Source: a virus (lineage: Duplodnaviria; Caudoviricetes). Taken from it: a stretch of 30,360 nucleotides of DNA. This document shows, one piece after another, positions 16,863-29,352 of this stretch. Numbering within the stretch: position 1 is the stretch's first letter; the number at the start of each line of letters is the position of its first letter. The stretch spans positions 1 through 30,360 of IMG/VR virus record IMGVR_UViG_3300032237_000074; one strand, given 5' to 3'. Position numbers and translations under genes: made by a program. Below the pieces are notes generated by a model. The model ran no database searches. It was not told where the DNA came from and saw only the letters and a list, made by a program, of their open reading frames with translations.

Positions 16863-16900
16863 AAAAAAGCCGCCTACCGAGAATATCCCAGCAGGCGGCT
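16863..16900 (-). terminator. Intrinsic terminator after the capsid/decoration genes
   Basis: Minus strand agccgcctgctggga-tat-tctcggtaggcggct (15-bp stem with G:U pairs) followed by T-run. Confidence 0.85.
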
Positions 16901-24075: not shown

Positions 24076-24230
24076 TTCTTGGCCGTTTTAGCGGATTGCT
24101 TAAACGCCTCGGCGGTTGGTGCGCCCTTTGTGCCAGGTTTACGCATTTTTTCTACGGGTTTACCCGCAGCTTTTTCCTGCTTGATGCGTTCCTGCTTGGC
24201 GTGAATGTTGGCATAGAGTCCAGGTTTCAT
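24072..24230 (-). CDS. Small basic phage protein
   Basis: MKPGLYANIHAKQERIK...MRKPGTKGAPTAEAFKQSAKTAKK; GGAGG RBS; ATGA overlaps. Confidence 0.8.
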   Translation of the reverse strand: MKPGLYANIHAKQERIKQEKAAGKPVEKMRKPGTKGAPTAEAFKQSAKTAKK

Positions 24231-24508
24231 ACTTCCTCCACAAAACAAATGTCCTGCCAACTCATGCGGAGATGGCGCTGGTCGTCAATGGTAATGGTAT
24301 CAAATTTAAGGTATTCGTTTTGGTAGTCTTTAGCCAAAGTCCCAAAATAGACCTTATCGCCGACTTTTAAGCCTTCGGCTGCGGCTTCGTCACCTACCGC
24401 GGTAATGTAGCCAACGGTGTCCGCTTCTGCGGTTTTGACCCATAAATCGCTCTTGATGCGCGTTTCGGGCCTGACGATGATTTTGTCTCTAAGCGGCTTG
24501 AACATCAT
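24227..24508 (-). CDS. groES: GroES/Cpn10-like co-chaperonin
   Basis: KPLRDKIIVRP...G.ITAVG...LKVGDKVYF...QDI; 93 aa. Confidence 0.8.
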   Translation of the reverse strand: MMFKPLRDKIIVRPETRIKSDLWVKTAEADTVGYITAVGDEAAAEGLKVGDKVYFGTLAKDYQNEYLKFDTITIDDQRHLRMSWQDICFVEEV

Positions 24509-26121: not shown

Positions 26122-26395
26122 TCATGTTCCTTATGAGGTTTTGCGCGGCTTCTACCGAGTCAATCAAGGCCACCGTCCCGCCATTCCAACCAGTCAGAAA
26201 AGCGCTTTGCTTAACATTTAACCCTTTTTTGCCGTAGGCGCTGGTCGGGTCTTTGACTTCGACTAGGGCCGTTTTTCCCGCGTAGCCTACCAAGAGGTCT
26301 ACCGGCAGCTTTAGAACGAATACAGAGGCTCCTGATGCCCTCAGCGCGGCAACTATCTCACCTTGATTCGCGTCAACCCTTGCGGCGTGTCTCAT
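26102..26395 (-). CDS. PD-(D/E)XK endonuclease (VRR-NUC/resolvase-like)
   Basis: AARVDANQ.EIV.ALR..G.SV...DLLVGY.G...LVEVKD...Q..F...W. Confidence 0.8.
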   Translation of the reverse strand: MRHAARVDANQGEIVAALRASGASVFVLKLPVDLLVGYAGKTALVEVKDPTSAYGKKGLNVKQSAFLTGWNGGTVALIDSVEAAQNLIRNMSDSSPV

Positions 26396-27666
26396 AACAA
26401 AGCATCAACCGCTTGAATTCTTTTGCCAATCCATGCCATCACAGGCACAGCCATTGAGTTGCCCAGCGCCTTGTACCTTGGCCCGTCAGGAGTTGCCTTG
26501 CCCTTGGGCTGGATGTCGGTGTATTTGTCAGGAAAACCTTGCAGGCGCTCACACTCCACAGGAGTCAGGCGGCGCACAGCCATTGCTTGTGCTACGGCCA
26601 TTGGATTTTTGGCTTCCAATGTTTGAGTCATGTCCACATCAGTCTGTGGGTTTGACATCTGCCCGCTGAATGCAATGGGTTGCAATATTGCCGTACCTCC
26701 TTGATGCATTTCTGGATTACTTGCCGATGCATCCAAAGTCTTTGATGCATGAGCATTTGTGACATGAATATCATTTTTCAATGCGCCTTTACCTGGAGAA
26801 ATGTTGTAAGCAATCGGCTGCGCCACCGTGTTATCAAATACGCCACCAGCAGCACAACGCAATGCGGTGACTGTTTCGGATGTTGTTTGGTTGTAAGCGT
26901 CAAATGCAATAAGTTGAGCTGGCACAAACATAGGACAACCGGCATTAACGTGCTGATTTTCTAAACCCATTTTTGTGCCAAATGTGGTGTCAAGAGTGCT
27001 ACTTATTTCAGCGGGCCATTGTTGAACTGCAACCATTGGATGTTCTACGTCAACGCCGCCTGTTCCAACGCTTGCCTTAATTGTTGGGGCAACTGTTTTC
27101 CCCTTTTCTCGGCTCGGCGCAAGATGCCCTTGCAAGCTATGGCGCTCAAAAAGTACCGCTGCGGCAGGTCGCCAGTCTCCAAGGTATCCGACAACGAACA
27201 CACGTTTGCGTCGCTGTGCCAGTCCGAAATATTGAGCGTCAAGCACCCTGTATGCGAACCCATACCCGAGGATTGCCAACCCTCCGAGGAAGGAACCAAA
27301 GTCCCGTCCATCAGCGGAGGACAAAACGCCGGGGACGTTCTCCCAGACCAACCAGTTGGGGCGATATCGTTTAGCAATGGCAAGATAGGTAAGCATGAGG
27401 TTGCCACGAGGGTCATCCAATCCTTTTCTGAGTCCTGCGACTGAGAAAGATTGGCATGGTGTTCCTCCAACGAAAACATCGACATCTGCATCAGGCCACT
27501 CCTTAAATTTGGTCATGTCGCCCAAATTGGGCACTACTGGGTAATGGTGTTGTAGCACCTTGCAAGGGAATGGCTCAATCTCTGAATATGCTACCGATTC
27601 CCAACCCAATGGATGCCAGGCAACACTTGCCGCCTCAATTCCGCTGCAAACAGAAAGAAATTTCAT
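26392..27666 (-). CDS. DNA (cytosine-5) methyltransferase
   Basis: Motif I SVCSGI; IV GGTPCQSFS; VI WENVPG; VIII QRRKRVF; IX RRLTPVECERLQGFP; X YKALGNS. Confidence 0.95.
   Translation of the reverse strand: MKFLSVCSGIEAASVAWHPLGWESVAYSEIEPFPCKVLQHHYPVVPNLGDMTKFKEWPDADVDVFVGGTPCQSFSVAGLRKGLDDPRGNLMLTYLAIAKRYRPNWLVWENVPGVLSSADGRDFGSFLGGLAILGYGFAYRVLDAQYFGLAQRRKRVFVVGYLGDWRPAAAVLFERHSLQGHLAPSREKGKTVAPTIKASVGTGGVDVEHPMVAVQQWPAEISSTLDTTFGTKMGLENQHVNAGCPMFVPAQLIAFDAYNQTTSETVTALRCAAGGVFDNTVAQPIAYNISPGKGALKNDIHVTNAHASKTLDASASNPEMHQGGTAILQPIAFSGQMSNPQTDVDMTQTLEAKNPMAVAQAMAVRRLTPVECERLQGFPDKYTDIQPKGKATPDGPRYKALGNSMAVPVMAWIGKRIQAVDALL
27045..27491 (-). CDS. Overprinted alternative-frame protein inside the MTase (M.EcoHK31I beta-like)
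   Basis: 148 aa, +1 frame; AAGGAG (27499-27504) 7 nt before ATG; C-terminal SLSDTLE...RYFLS..ACKGILRRAEKRGKQLP. Confidence 0.7.
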   Translation of the reverse strand: MQMSMFSLEEHHANLSQSQDSEKDWMTLVATSCLPILPLLNDIAPTGWSGRTSPAFCPPLMDGTLVPSSEGWQSSGMGSHTGCLTLNISDWHSDANVCSLSDTLETGDLPQRYFLSAIACKGILRRAEKRGKQLPQQLRQALEQAALT

Positions 27667-27827
27667 TTCTTCATTTCTTTCAAAACGTGGGCTTTAATGC
27701 CCGCAAACAAGTCATCTTCATCCATGCGCTGCACTTCGCGCCAGGCCCATTCTTTCCAAGCTGGTAGATGGCATAAGCGCACCATGTCAGCAAAGACGCG
27801 CTCACGGATTGCAATAGGGTCATACAC
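27663..27827 (-). CDS. Hypothetical protein, 54 aa
   Basis: Manual translation from GTG: MYDPIAIRERVFADMVRLCHLPAWKEWAWREVQRMDEDDLFAGIKAHVLKEMKK; ATGA overlap with MTase; not in ORF track. Confidence 0.6.
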   Translation of the reverse strand: MYDPIAIRERVFADMVRLCHLPAWKEWAWREVQRMDEDDLFAGIKAHVLKEMKK

Positions 27828-28185
27828 GGCGAATTCGCAATTCGTTCAAGCGTTCACGAATGTGGCTAGGCATGGGTGCGGCTTTTTTGTCATCTTCATA
27901 AATCTTTTGCAGCGCTAAATCCACCCGTTTTTTGTCAGGCATATCAGGCACTTCAGCCCCGTCCCAGCGTTGTTGGTTAAGGTAGACAAGAGGCGCGGGA
28001 ATAAATGCGCCATCTGATTTAAGCCATTGTTCGGTGGTCTTCATCCATTCAATGTGCTTGATGATTTGGTCGGCCTGAGTCTCGCAGTAAAACTTGACCC
28101 ATTTTTTTTTACATTCAGACTTTGCGCCCTTGCGCGGAGTCTTTGGGTAAGCAGTCCAAAACTTATCGAATCCTGATTCAAACAT
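27820..28185 (-). CDS. Replication-initiator-like protein, C-terminal domain only
   Basis: FDKFW.AYPK..RK..K....KKW...FIPAP..YLNQQRW, as in C-termini of phage replisome organizers; AAGGAG RBS. Confidence 0.7.
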   Translation of the reverse strand: MFESGFDKFWTAYPKTPRKGAKSECKKKWVKFYCETQADQIIKHIEWMKTTEQWLKSDGAFIPAPLVYLNQQRWDGAEVPDMPDKKRVDLALQKIYEDDKKAAPMPSHIRERLNELRIRRV

Positions 28186-28199
28186 CTGCTATCTCCTTA

Positions 28200-28425
28200 A
28201 TTGCTTTTTGGTGAATGTTGGAGCAAAGCACAGCCTTACCGTGGTCAAAACCAAAGTTCGCTCTGTGCCGTGACTTGCTTTTCGGAGCCATGTCATCGCA
28301 TCGCACTGGACAGACTATTTCAACCACCGCGCTCTATCCTTAGCCCACGCTCCCTGTCTTGGCTTGCTCGTGCAACAGGGTATCTCAGACGCAACCACCG
28401 ACGTACCGCATTGCGTTGTCCAAAA
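28200..28425 (-). ncRNA. Candidate multibranch structured RNA (or hairpin-rich origin)
   Basis: Stems tggaca/tgtcca, acgcaa/ttgcgt, ccctgt/acaggg, tgac..gct/agc..gtca, gcacag/ctgtgc; no convincing ORF; by-eye folding only. Confidence 0.4.
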
Positions 28426-28427
28426 GC

Positions 28428-28546
28428 AAAAACCCCGCAAGATGCTCTGTGGTCTTGGCTCTTGGCGAGAGCAACAGCAAGGCGATTGAAGCAACTCAAA
28501 AGTCTCGCTTGCCGTACGACAAGACCACACAGTACCCTGCGGGGTT
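28428..28546 (-). ncRNA. c4/CI-like antisense RNA (three-way junction)
   Basis: Closing stems 28431-28439/28538-28546 and 28448-28457/28520-28529; two inner hairpins complementary to upstream sites at 28552-28580; U-run at the 3' end. Confidence 0.7.
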
Positions 28547-28589
28547 CATTGGTTGCTTCATCGCCTAGATGCCACTCTAGACGGGTTGG

Positions 28590-28619
28590 ATTATACATAA
28601 ATTTAAGTCATTGTGTAAA
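28590..28619 (-). promoter_or_regulatory. Sigma70-type promoter for the ncRNA/replication operon
   Basis: Minus TTTACA(28619-28614)-18 nt-TATAAT(28595-28590). Confidence 0.7.
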
Positions 28620-28703
28620 ACAGGTACAAAAGAAATGCCCATGCCCACCAAGGCGCGTGCCCAAAGATGCAAGCTACAAGCACCAAACAAAAGAAAAACA
28701 GTC

Positions 28704-28856
28704 TTAAAGAAACCATTCGGGCCTCATAGCTTTTAGCTGCCACAGCCTGGCTTTGGGGATTGCTTTCCATTGGGAAATTGCTGCGCTGCTGATGCCTAGA
28801 ATTCGGGCCAGTTCGCTGGCTGTGCCTGCACGTTTGATTGCTTCTGCTTTGTCCAT
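28704..28856 (-). CDS. cro: Cro-like HTH regulator, 50 aa
   Basis: Manual translation MDKAEAIKRAGTASELARILGISSAAISQWKAIPKARLWQLKAMRPEWFL; HTH ending SQW...IP; not in ORF track. Confidence 0.88.
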   Translation of the reverse strand: MDKAEAIKRAGTASELARILGISSAAISQWKAIPKARLWQLKAMRPEWFL

Positions 28857-28865
28857 CCTTTGATT

Positions 28866-28956
28866 GTAAGCTGGCTTACGATGATTTGGCTATTAGGGTT
28901 TGCCCTATAGCATTTCGCAACTTTAATTGATGAATTGCTGTTAATCTAGCTTAACA
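28866..28956. promoter_or_regulatory. Divergent control region with two related operator palindromes
   Basis: gtaagc-tg-gcttac (28866-28879) and tgttaatctagcttaaca (28939-28956) share TAA.CT.GCTTA; tagggtttgcccta lies between them. Confidence 0.7.
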
Positions 28957-29002
28957 TTCAGTCATCGCAACAACGCGATGTTTTGACCCTAGAAAGGTTT
29001 TT

Positions 29003-29257
29003 ATGACTTATAAAAAATTTGATTCAACTTTAATCACAGCCATTTATTTGGCAGAACAAGCTGAAAATGAGAAGGCAGCAGAGTACTCAATCAGCATAGC
29101 CGCCGAGTTGCGCCGCTTGCATAAATTGAATGGTGAGCTGTTGGAAGCATTGAAAGTGTGCCAACGCGCACTTCGCCAGTTGTCATTTAAAGATGTCGTT
29201 AGAAATCAGGCGACTGAGCGCGCATTTGAAGTTATTGCAAAAGCAGAAGGAAATTAA
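29003..29257 (+). CDS. Hypothetical early protein
   Basis: AAELRRLH...ELLEALK...IAKAEG motifs common in phage early genes. Confidence 0.75.
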   Translation: MTYKKFDSTLITAIYLAEQAENEKAAEYSISIAAELRRLHKLNGELLEALKVCQRALRQLSFKDVVRNQATERAFEVIAKAEGN

Positions 29258-29259
29258 AC

Positions 29260-29352
29260 ATGACTAAAGAAACATGGGATTCCATCATCACAACGGCAGC
29301 CATTGCCATCATTGCCTACACCATCGGCTACTTTGTCGGAGGTGGCGTATGA
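29260..29352 (+). CDS. 30-aa single-pass membrane peptide
   Basis: MTKETWDSIITTAAIAIIAYTIGYFVGGGV; AAGGA RBS; ATGA overlap; not in ORF track. Confidence 0.65.
   Translation: MTKETWDSIITTAAIAIIAYTIGYFVGGGV

What the first reader, a model, noticed from the sequence alone, without database searches (positions are those of the whole stretch)
27820..28425. Structured ~225-nt non-coding element directly upstream of a Rep-like protein lacking its DNA-binding domain
Seen: the 121-aa protein begins, with its own AAGGAG RBS, right at the FDKFWxAYPK domain. The upstream space is occupied by nested stems: tggaca 28307-12/tgtcca 28417-22 encloses acgcaa/ttgcgt and ccctgt/acaggg; next is a tgac..gct-tttcgg-agc..gtca hairpin; then gcacag 28228-33/ctgtgc 28263-68, with a competing gagcgaa/tttgctc pairing near the RBS. 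A 9-bp direct repeat caaccaccg occurs at 28321 and 28392. Known: lambdoid initiators and replisome organizers normally have an N-terminal wHTH and iterons within the gene. Inference: an RNA or folded ssDNA may replace the origin-binding domain (an RNA-assisted initiation system), or the element is a cis-switch controlling Rep translation.
Basis: partly seen in the sequence, partly recalled or inferred. Interest (0 to 1): 0.8.

Follow-up and report, generated by a model that had tools for sequence, protein, structure and literature searches.

The report
Self-guiding knotted RNA, candidate phage origin
Many small uncultured phages carry a conserved, knotted 230-base non-coding element with an internal copy of its own end, which likely lets its RNA re-pair with the phage DNA and probably starts DNA replication without a DNA-binding initiator protein.

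Summary
It is the second half of a ~400-nt unit on the minus strand: sigma70 promoter, 160-nt terminator leader, then a 230-nt module. Alone it folds no better than shuffles. In 57 relatives, 21 of 36 pairs show compensatory changes, including a pseudoknot. It is non-coding and has no Rfam match. Its 3' end is repeated 74 nt upstream. The two copies change together (7.2 of 8 letters, 4.2 permuted) and differ almost only G-upstream/A-downstream, as expected if the RNA pairs with the template strand, like ColE1 RNA II. It is not a Rep translation switch: Rep is adjacent in only 15 of 76. All 80 loci of the headless Rep carry this module or an alternative one; 10 of 10 near-complete genomes tested lack a DnaB helicase. 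Against a simple replacement, five larger phages keep the module beside their own helicase, four with a full-length Rep. Best reading: a self-guided R-loop origin (0.45); main rival: transcription read-through control (0.3). Neither is tested. The scan noted this RNA before on another genome (e1-6316322).

The parts
28590..28619 (-). sigma70-type promoter, TTTACA-18-TATAAT (11 of 12)
   Evidence: a -10-like hexamer from a loose list lies 100-230 nt upstream of 56 of 72 type A elements
28424..28584 (-). Leader RNA: 5' hairpin (loop GUGGCA, 28570-28575), long terminator-type stem (arms 28520-28546 and 28431-28457) enclosing an inner loop CGCCAA (28462-28467) complementary to the 5' loop, then a U-tract
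   Evidence: z -6.84; inverted repeat; 5'-to-inner complementarity 6.16 nt vs 4.83 permuted (max 5.23) over 87 distinct leaders, 50 distinct pairing words; U-tract just before 70 of 72 type A elements
28389..28416 (-). Module helix P1 with near-invariant 14-nt loop (28396-28409)
   Evidence: 6 of 7 pairs compensatory, U-G closing pair in 57 of 57; the loop was the search pattern, so its invariance is partly by selection
28352..28380 (-). Module helix P2 with conserved 15-nt loop
   Evidence: 5 of 7 pairs compensatory, 95% of cells paired
28308..28350 (-). H-type pseudoknot: 28347-28350 with 28329-28332, and 28333-28339 with 28308-28314; optional hairpins insert in its long loop
   Evidence: 100% and 92% of cells paired, compensatory pairs in both helices; strongest mutual-information pair of the alignment; 12 of 17 long inserts capped by GNRA loops, 10 of them in one clade
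28275..28306 (-). Upstream copy of the imperfect direct repeat (candidate internal guide; core 28275-28293)
28227..28269 (-). 3' hairpin (28263-28269 with 28227-28233) with an inner stem-loop 28242-28253; the linker 5' of it holds a DnaA box in 14 of 76 relatives, not in the window
28201..28231 (-). Downstream copy of the direct repeat at the module's 3' end (candidate DNA target; core 28201-28218)
27820..28198 (-). RBS (28193-28198) and 121-aa stand-alone C-terminal domain of DUF1376-type phage initiators
   Evidence: fused forms P0122-P0124 and the G013 Rep, 40% identical over 87 aa; no informative fold match
28704..28856 (-). Cro-like gene upstream of the promoter (context)
   Evidence: P22_Cro, E 4e-11

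Best explanation
The 230-nt module is a conserved, pseudoknotted non-coding element behind a promoter and terminator leader, and it likely acts as an RNA whose internal copy of its own 3' end pairs with the template DNA strand, which would nucleate a persistent R-loop that probably serves as a ColE1-like replication origin. Shown: structure by covariation, non-coding status, the covarying direct repeat and its one-way G/A bias, one copy per genome, and linkage to the headless initiator. Inferred steps: (1) a minority of transcripts read through the leader terminator, possibly tuned by the loop-loop pairing of the leader; (2) the module folds and presents the upstream repeat; (3) when polymerase passes the downstream repeat, the RNA pairs with the template there and blocks rewinding; (4) the hybrid primes DNA synthesis (RNase H and Pol I) or opens the duplex; (5) host DnaB is loaded with help from the headless initiator domain, DnaA boxes or PriA. 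In larger phages with their own Rep and helicase it would be a second origin.
For: Repeat identity 7.2 of 8 vs 4.25 permuted (max 4.80 in 5000) in 51 unique pairs with 32 distinct 7-mers; left block 3.33 of 4 vs 2.83 (71 of 76 sequences parsed). No sequence-specific third partner on the same strand upstream (p 0.13) or downstream (p 0.54) in 41 loci. Differences between the copies are wobble-compatible with upstream RNA on downstream template in 22 cases vs 2 the other way (41 of 54 pairs, invariant first position left out). Precedent: rG stretch of RNA II pairs with the template dC stretch (PMC4412123, passages); ColE1 has the two G6 tracts at 928 and 1175. Perfect DnaA boxes lie within 75 nt after the 3' repeat in 3 elements (0.19 expected, p 0.001), in the linker in 14 of 76 (1-2 gains) and just after 3 of 49 type B elements. 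ColE1 has a DnaA box near its pas (PMC3640518, passage; position 1271). 10 of 10 near-complete headless-Rep genomes have no DnaB_C hit. The module stays beside the headless gene when the order is reversed (L143, L174, MW202484). A similar podophage with a fused, repeat-containing Rep and helicase has no A or B module in 4.2 kb (MW202481). In G004 and G007 the module heads a short early block and the structural genes lie on the other strand. The alternative module B begins with a 17-nt motif also found in ColE1 between rop and bom (E 0.039).
Against: Type A also occurs in 39-63 kb phages with their own helicase (G011, G013; G012, G014, G016). Four of them have a full-length Rep 9-14 kb away, and there the module sits near the terminase genes like a late promoter leader. 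No Q antiterminator (PF06530) was found in 5 of 5 genomes tested, so an RNA-based read-through device is needed or at least unexcluded. GC skew shows no informative switch. In 7 of 51 pairs, the window among them, the repeat is also complementary to the leader's terminator tail, and 16 of 41 best duplex sites fall there. Type B shows no such free direct repeat: its identity signal has a complementary third site. Counts are not phylogenetically independent and the tree-based test could not be run. The DnaA-box window was chosen after seeing the data. The ColE1 motif match is weak at database scale (E about 2), and its identity as ssiB/pas-BH is recalled. Type A has no significant sequence similarity to RNA II. 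No antisense RNA I equivalent was found.
Confidence: 0.45

Rival explanations
1. The module is a cis-acting RNA that controls transcription of the gene block behind it, like HK022 put or a P4/IsrK-type leader. After read-through of the leader terminator it would modify RNA polymerase or, through the same RNA-template pairing, set pausing or antitermination, replacing N and Q.
For: It follows a U-tract in 70 of 72 cases and heads varied gene blocks: rep, HNH or other inserts, terminase, cargo. It is kept in phages that have a complete replication module. No Q in 5 of 5. The window has one strong leftward promoter and a strong terminator at 16868-16900 inside a long same-strand gene run.
Against: put is about 70 nt with two stem-loops and lies ahead of the terminators it suppresses (PMC9378689, passages); this module lies behind the first terminator. 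It does not explain the DnaA boxes, the linkage to the headless initiator in either order, or G004 and G007, where only a short block follows and no second copy heads the late genes.
Confidence: 0.3
2. The structure works as folded single-stranded DNA on the non-template strand (a primosome-assembly or single-strand-initiation site). It would be exposed when the terminated leader RNA primes strand displacement; the repeat would form a slipped DNA structure.
For: The B and D modules start with a motif shared with the ColE1 rop-bom stretch and followed by ACCC(A/G) in 88 of 91 distinct cases, ColE1 included (6% background). RNA and ssDNA structures are hard to tell apart computationally (PMC5737381, passage).
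Against: Invariant U-G pairs, a pseudoknot and GNRA-capped inserts, plus C(UNCG)G loops in type B, are RNA-typical. Type A lacks the ColE1 motif.
Confidence: 0.1
3. One reading: the RNA binds the 121-aa protein and delivers it to the DNA, directly replacing the lost DNA-binding domain (an RNA-protein initiator).
For: 80 of 80 headless-Rep loci carry module A or B; types C and D also precede the headless gene.
Against: Nearly the same protein is paired with at least four unrelated modules, and type A occurs without it. No RNA-binding fold was identified.
Confidence: 0.1
4. A cis-switch that controls translation of the Rep-like gene.
For: In the window the module ends 3 nt before the RBS.
Against: Rep is adjacent in only 15 of 76; other genes or nothing related follow in the rest. 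The conserved helices do not include the RBS.
Confidence: 0.03

Closest known systems
ColE1 RNA II pre-primer (PMC5043065, PMC4412123; passages read)
   Same: Promoter-driven structured non-coding RNA; a short direct repeat whose upstream RNA copy can pair with the template at the downstream copy; DnaA boxes near the 3' side in some members; reliance on host helicase in the small genomes.
   Different: About 230 nt instead of 550; no significant sequence similarity; the repeat is a freely varying two-block sequence, not a G tract; a terminator precedes it; no antisense RNA I found; it lies in phages, beside a headless initiator gene.
T4 oriF/oriG R-loop origins (PMC4412123, passage)
   Same: Phage origin made of a promoter and a transcript that forms a persistent hybrid; can coexist with other replication modes.
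   Different: T4 uses a DNA unwinding element, not a conserved pseudoknotted RNA with an internal guide.
P4 SeqA/CI RNA and Gifsy-1 IsrK (PMC4825925, passages)
   Same: Promoter, short terminated RNA, read-through into a second structured RNA, ahead of replication or lytic genes; intramolecular complementarity in the leader.
   Different: CI pairs with seqA and seqC. Here 50 different leader pairing words go with near-invariant module loops, and one leader type goes with four module types, so no module-leader pairing is seen. No integrase or repressor was recognised in G005.
HK022 put RNA (PMC9378689, passages)
   Same: Cis RNA near a phage promoter in genomes without a recognised antiterminator protein.
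   Different: Three times longer, pseudoknotted, behind a terminator, single copy, with a self-repeat.
ARRPOF, PAGEV, GEBRO plasmid motifs (PMC5737381, passage)
   Same: 223-349 nt structured motifs tied to replication regions, RNA or ssDNA unresolved.
   Different: No Rfam match for type A or for representatives of the other modules; found in phages, not in PLSDB plasmids.
DUF1376 (YdaU-type) phage initiators
   Same: The 121-aa protein is homologous to their C-terminal domain.
   Different: It lacks the DUF1376 domain and the repeat-bearing middle part of the gene.

Membership tests
ColE1-type RNA II replicon | Sequence homology to RNA II | tested here: not met
   Profile and local alignment against ColE1 and CloDF13 not clearly above shuffles and not at RNA II; covariance model no hit
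ColE1-type RNA II replicon | Antisense RNA I overlapping the 5' end | tested here: not met
   RNAI model hits ColE1 only; no plus-strand promoter-like site in 27600-29300
ColE1-type RNA II replicon | Upstream RNA stretch able to pair with the template strand near the origin | tested here: met
   Met at sequence level only: covarying direct repeat with one-way wobble bias
ColE1-type RNA II replicon | Persistent hybrid, RNase H cleavage, Pol I extension | not testable with these tools
   Needs bench work
ColE1-type RNA II replicon | Helicase-loading signal (pas or DnaA box) downstream | tested here: inconclusive
   DnaA boxes enriched but present in a minority and absent from the window's element
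P4 CI / c4 antisense immunity RNA | RNA loops complementary to an upstream (seqA) and a downstream (seqC) site | tested here: not met
   For the module's variable repeat no specific partner upstream or downstream; module loops stay fixed while leader words vary; no Rfam hit
P4 SeqA / IsrK-type leader | Short terminated RNA with read-through, acting in trans | tested here: inconclusive
   Architecture present; transcripts and trans action not testable
HK022 put antiterminator | About 70 nt, two stem-loops, ahead of the terminators it suppresses | tested here: not met
   230 nt, pseudoknot, behind the first terminator
HK022 put antiterminator | Binding to the beta-prime zinc-binding domain and antitermination | not testable with these tools
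   Needs bench work
DUF1376-type initiator | N-terminal DUF1376 domain | tested here: not met
   No Pfam hit for the 121-aa protein; no coding remnant upstream
DUF1376-type initiator | C-terminal domain | tested here: met
   40% identity over 87 aa to a DUF1376 protein
DnaT / DnaD-like ssDNA-binding domain | Fold or profile match | tested here: inconclusive
   Model pLDDT 76.5; best Z 5.4 to an unrelated design; no PDB sequence hit

The most novel reading that the evidence does not exclude
Small phages have given up the DNA-binding half of their initiator and their helicase, and use a family of interchangeable, knotted RNA origins instead. Type A carries a freely re-programmable internal guide that recognises its own DNA by base-pairing to the template strand, so origin specificity is written in RNA, and the headless protein recruits the host helicase to the opened site.
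Probability: 0.3. Interest if true: 0.92.

Novelty: new variant of a known kind. Interest (0 to 1): 0.78.

Why it matters
If the origin reading holds, RNA-primed ColE1-like initiation is not a plasmid speciality but a common strategy of small uncultured phages. It would explain how they replicate with no recognised helicase or full initiator. The variable, self-matching guide gives a direct compensatory-mutation test of how persistent R-loops are nucleated, a trigger that PMC5043065 calls still speculative. If the rival holds, it is a new class of cis RNA for phage transcription control.

Tried and rejected
Coding remnant: element lengths fall 29/22/20 over the three frames, only 23 of 76 have a stop-free frame, and the N-terminal parts of three fused homologs give no tblastn hit below E 1. 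Resemblance of type A to RNA II, first noticed from memory: not significant. GC skew in the window and at four-fold sites of 9 genomes: no usable switch. Expression: 24 runs listed, 6 different runs laid in two calls, all as contigs. Contigs of RNA libraries cover the element, but the runs were found with it and relatives map best to conserved DNA, so this is no evidence of transcription. Rfam: nothing at gathering score in the window or 19 phage loci; only sub-threshold hits by E-value. INPHARED phages and PLSDB plasmids: no DNA match to 28190-28620. GTDB pattern scan: 3 stretches, 2 true (phage-like contigs in MAGs) and 1 chance, so no host. 46 of 119 loci from the P1-loop pattern had no profile hit. 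Fold searches were uninformative; the Atlas gave only unnamed clusters, with PF09524 as a weak lead. The first pair count used a mis-registered structure and was replaced. Not obtained: the profile search over representatives, a complex prediction of the domain with a helicase, and a tree-based count of co-changes in the repeat; these three questions stay open. Literature: nine searches answered besides one sequence-string search found no description of this element. Six supplementary files of PMC10690425 held no match, but files 1, 2 and 4 were not searched, so it may be among that paper's unannotated candidates.

Full report
Setting. The window is most of a P22-like podophage genome (portal, coat, terminase). 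On the minus strand a cro-like gene is followed by a strong sigma70-type promoter at 28590-28619, 400 non-coding bases, the 121-aa ORF, a C5 methylase, NinB and the structural genes. The host is unknown.

Observation. The strongly folded part is upstream: a 160-nt leader ending in a long stem and U-tract (z -6.84). I therefore turned to homologs. A protein-anchored scan gave 511 relatives, of which the best 80 were kept. Two element-anchored scans added 119 loci each. A profile collected 186 type A hits, 76 after removing sequences at least 95% alike.

Structure. I aligned 57 of the 76, leaving out 19 mainly for long inserts or divergence. A 36-pair structure has 91.8% of cells paired and 21 compensatory pairs. 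Its covariation score is 0.396, against 0.142 for shuffles and at most 0.094 for slid partners. The structure was derived from these sequences, so the slide control is lenient; the unbiased mutual-information scan ranks the same pairs first. It comprises P1, P2, an H-type pseudoknot and a 3' hairpin. Rfam has no match.

The self-repeat. Positions 74-75 nt apart covary by identity. The 8 letters after GGCTCC match those after TCACC at 7.2 of 8, against 4.25 when permuted, over 51 unique pairs and 32 different words; a 4-letter block to the left covaries too. No sequence-specific complement was found upstream or downstream on the same strand. In 7 of 51 pairs, including the window, the repeat also matches the terminator tail, which does not change with it. 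Where the copies differ, the upstream copy has G and the downstream copy A in 22 cases, against 2 of the reverse type. That is the direction tolerated if the upstream RNA pairs with the template strand of the downstream copy. These counts are not independent events, and the tree-based test could not be run. The known precedent is ColE1, where the rG stretch of RNA II pairs with the template dC stretch to make the persistent hybrid (PMC4412123, passages); the two G6 tracts are at 928 and 1175 of ColE1.

The slot. All 80 protein-anchored loci carry either type A (36) or an unrelated, equally covarying type B (44); some loci are near-duplicates. The leader-anchored scan showed types C and D before the same headless gene. 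The leader itself is conserved in shape: its 5' loop is complementary to an inner loop of the terminator, with 50 different words in 87 leaders. This resembles the P4 SeqA and Gifsy-1 IsrK layout (PMC4825925, passages), but the module does not behave like CI RNA. Type B and many other modules start with a 17-nt motif followed by ACCC(A/G) in 88 of 91 distinct cases. The same motif pair lies in ColE1 at 1532-1548 on the minus strand (E 0.039 in 33 kb, about 2 in PLSDB). That this ColE1 stretch is ssiB/pas-BH is recalled; PMC3167613 (passages) says only that ssiB lies further downstream than ssiA.

The protein. It is the C-terminal domain of DUF1376-type initiators. Its fold found no informative match. 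It is adjacent to type A in 15 of 76 cases, separated by an inserted gene in 19, upstream in 2, absent in 21 with at least 1.5 kb of flank, and undetermined in 19. A translation switch is therefore unlikely.

For an origin. Ten of 10 near-complete headless-Rep genomes lack DnaB_C. In G005, 48 ORFs scanned by NCBIfam and 17 by PHROGs gave no helicase, polymerase or integrase; the only primase-family hit was the methylase domain. Each of 9 genomes read in full has one module. The module stays beside the headless gene when the order is flipped. MW202481 has a fused Rep with four TGCTAGCA repeats and a helicase at this place, and no A or B module in the 4.2 kb read; three other fused loci also lack one within 2.5 kb. 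Perfect DnaA boxes are enriched at the 3' side: 3 within 75 nt against 0.19 expected, 14 of 76 in the linker from 1-2 gains, and 3 of 49 after type B. ColE1 has a DnaA box near its pas (PMC3640518, passage).

Against. Type A is also present in larger phages with their own helicase: G011 and G013, and G012, G014 and G016 of five more tested (G015 and G017, both incomplete, had none). G011 to G014 have a full-length Rep 9-14 kb away, and in G011 and G013 the module lies near the terminase genes. No Q was found in 5 of 5 genomes. So the module is not merely a stand-in for a lost domain, and a role in transcription read-through stays open. put RNA differs in size, shape and position (PMC9378689, passages). 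In G004 and G007 the late genes are on the other strand without a second copy, which fits an origin better. Skew and RNA contigs were uninformative.

Verdict. This is a real, uncatalogued structured RNA class with an unusual self-matching guide. It probably works like ColE1 RNA II (0.45) but is not a member of that family. Transcription control (0.3), ssDNA signal (0.1) and RNA-protein initiator (0.1) are the rivals. I found no description in ten literature searches; three supplements of PMC10690425 were not searchable. An earlier agent of this scan described the same RNA and its self-copy on another genome; I had reached both points before reading that note.

Noticed in passing
L064:2721-2978, L222, L258, L269, L324-L443: At least three other structured modules (B, C, D) and many further variants fill the same slot. 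Many start with one 17-nt motif that also occurs in ColE1; several D-like ones end in a GGGGTAGGGGG-type tract with G runs upstream.
   Followed up: partly
window 28424-28584: Leader RNA class of 100-170 nt with covarying 5'-loop/inner-loop pairing (87 distinct leaders); no Rfam match; deserves its own study.
   Followed up: partly
L021:2697-3005, L024, L083: HNH-type genes inserted directly behind the module (Pfam HNH confirmed for L021).
   Followed up: partly
L404:554-617, L269 about 280-340 nt after the leader: int-alpA-like motif just behind a module (sub-threshold Rfam hit, E 0.22, for L404; seen by eye in L269).
   Followed up: no
L365, L377: The 17-nt motif with its downstream stem is tandemly duplicated 71 nt apart.
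   Followed up: no
window 24227-24508: Phage-encoded GroES-like co-chaperonin (Cpn10, E 1e-4).
   Followed up: no
window 27045-27491 and 26392-27666: A 148-aa ORF overlaps the C5 methylase gene in another frame on the same strand; similar overlapping ORFs occur in many relatives.
   Followed up: no
window 16868-16900: Strong intrinsic terminator-like site inside the leftward run of structural genes.
   Followed up: no
promoters of types A and B, 100-200 nt upstream of the module: A DnaA-box consensus overlaps the -10 region in 14 of 76 type A and 7 of 49 type B loci; this may only reflect the extended -10 sequence.
   Followed up: no
L458:12509-14761 (G011): Terminase large subunit with an intein signature.
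   Followed up: no
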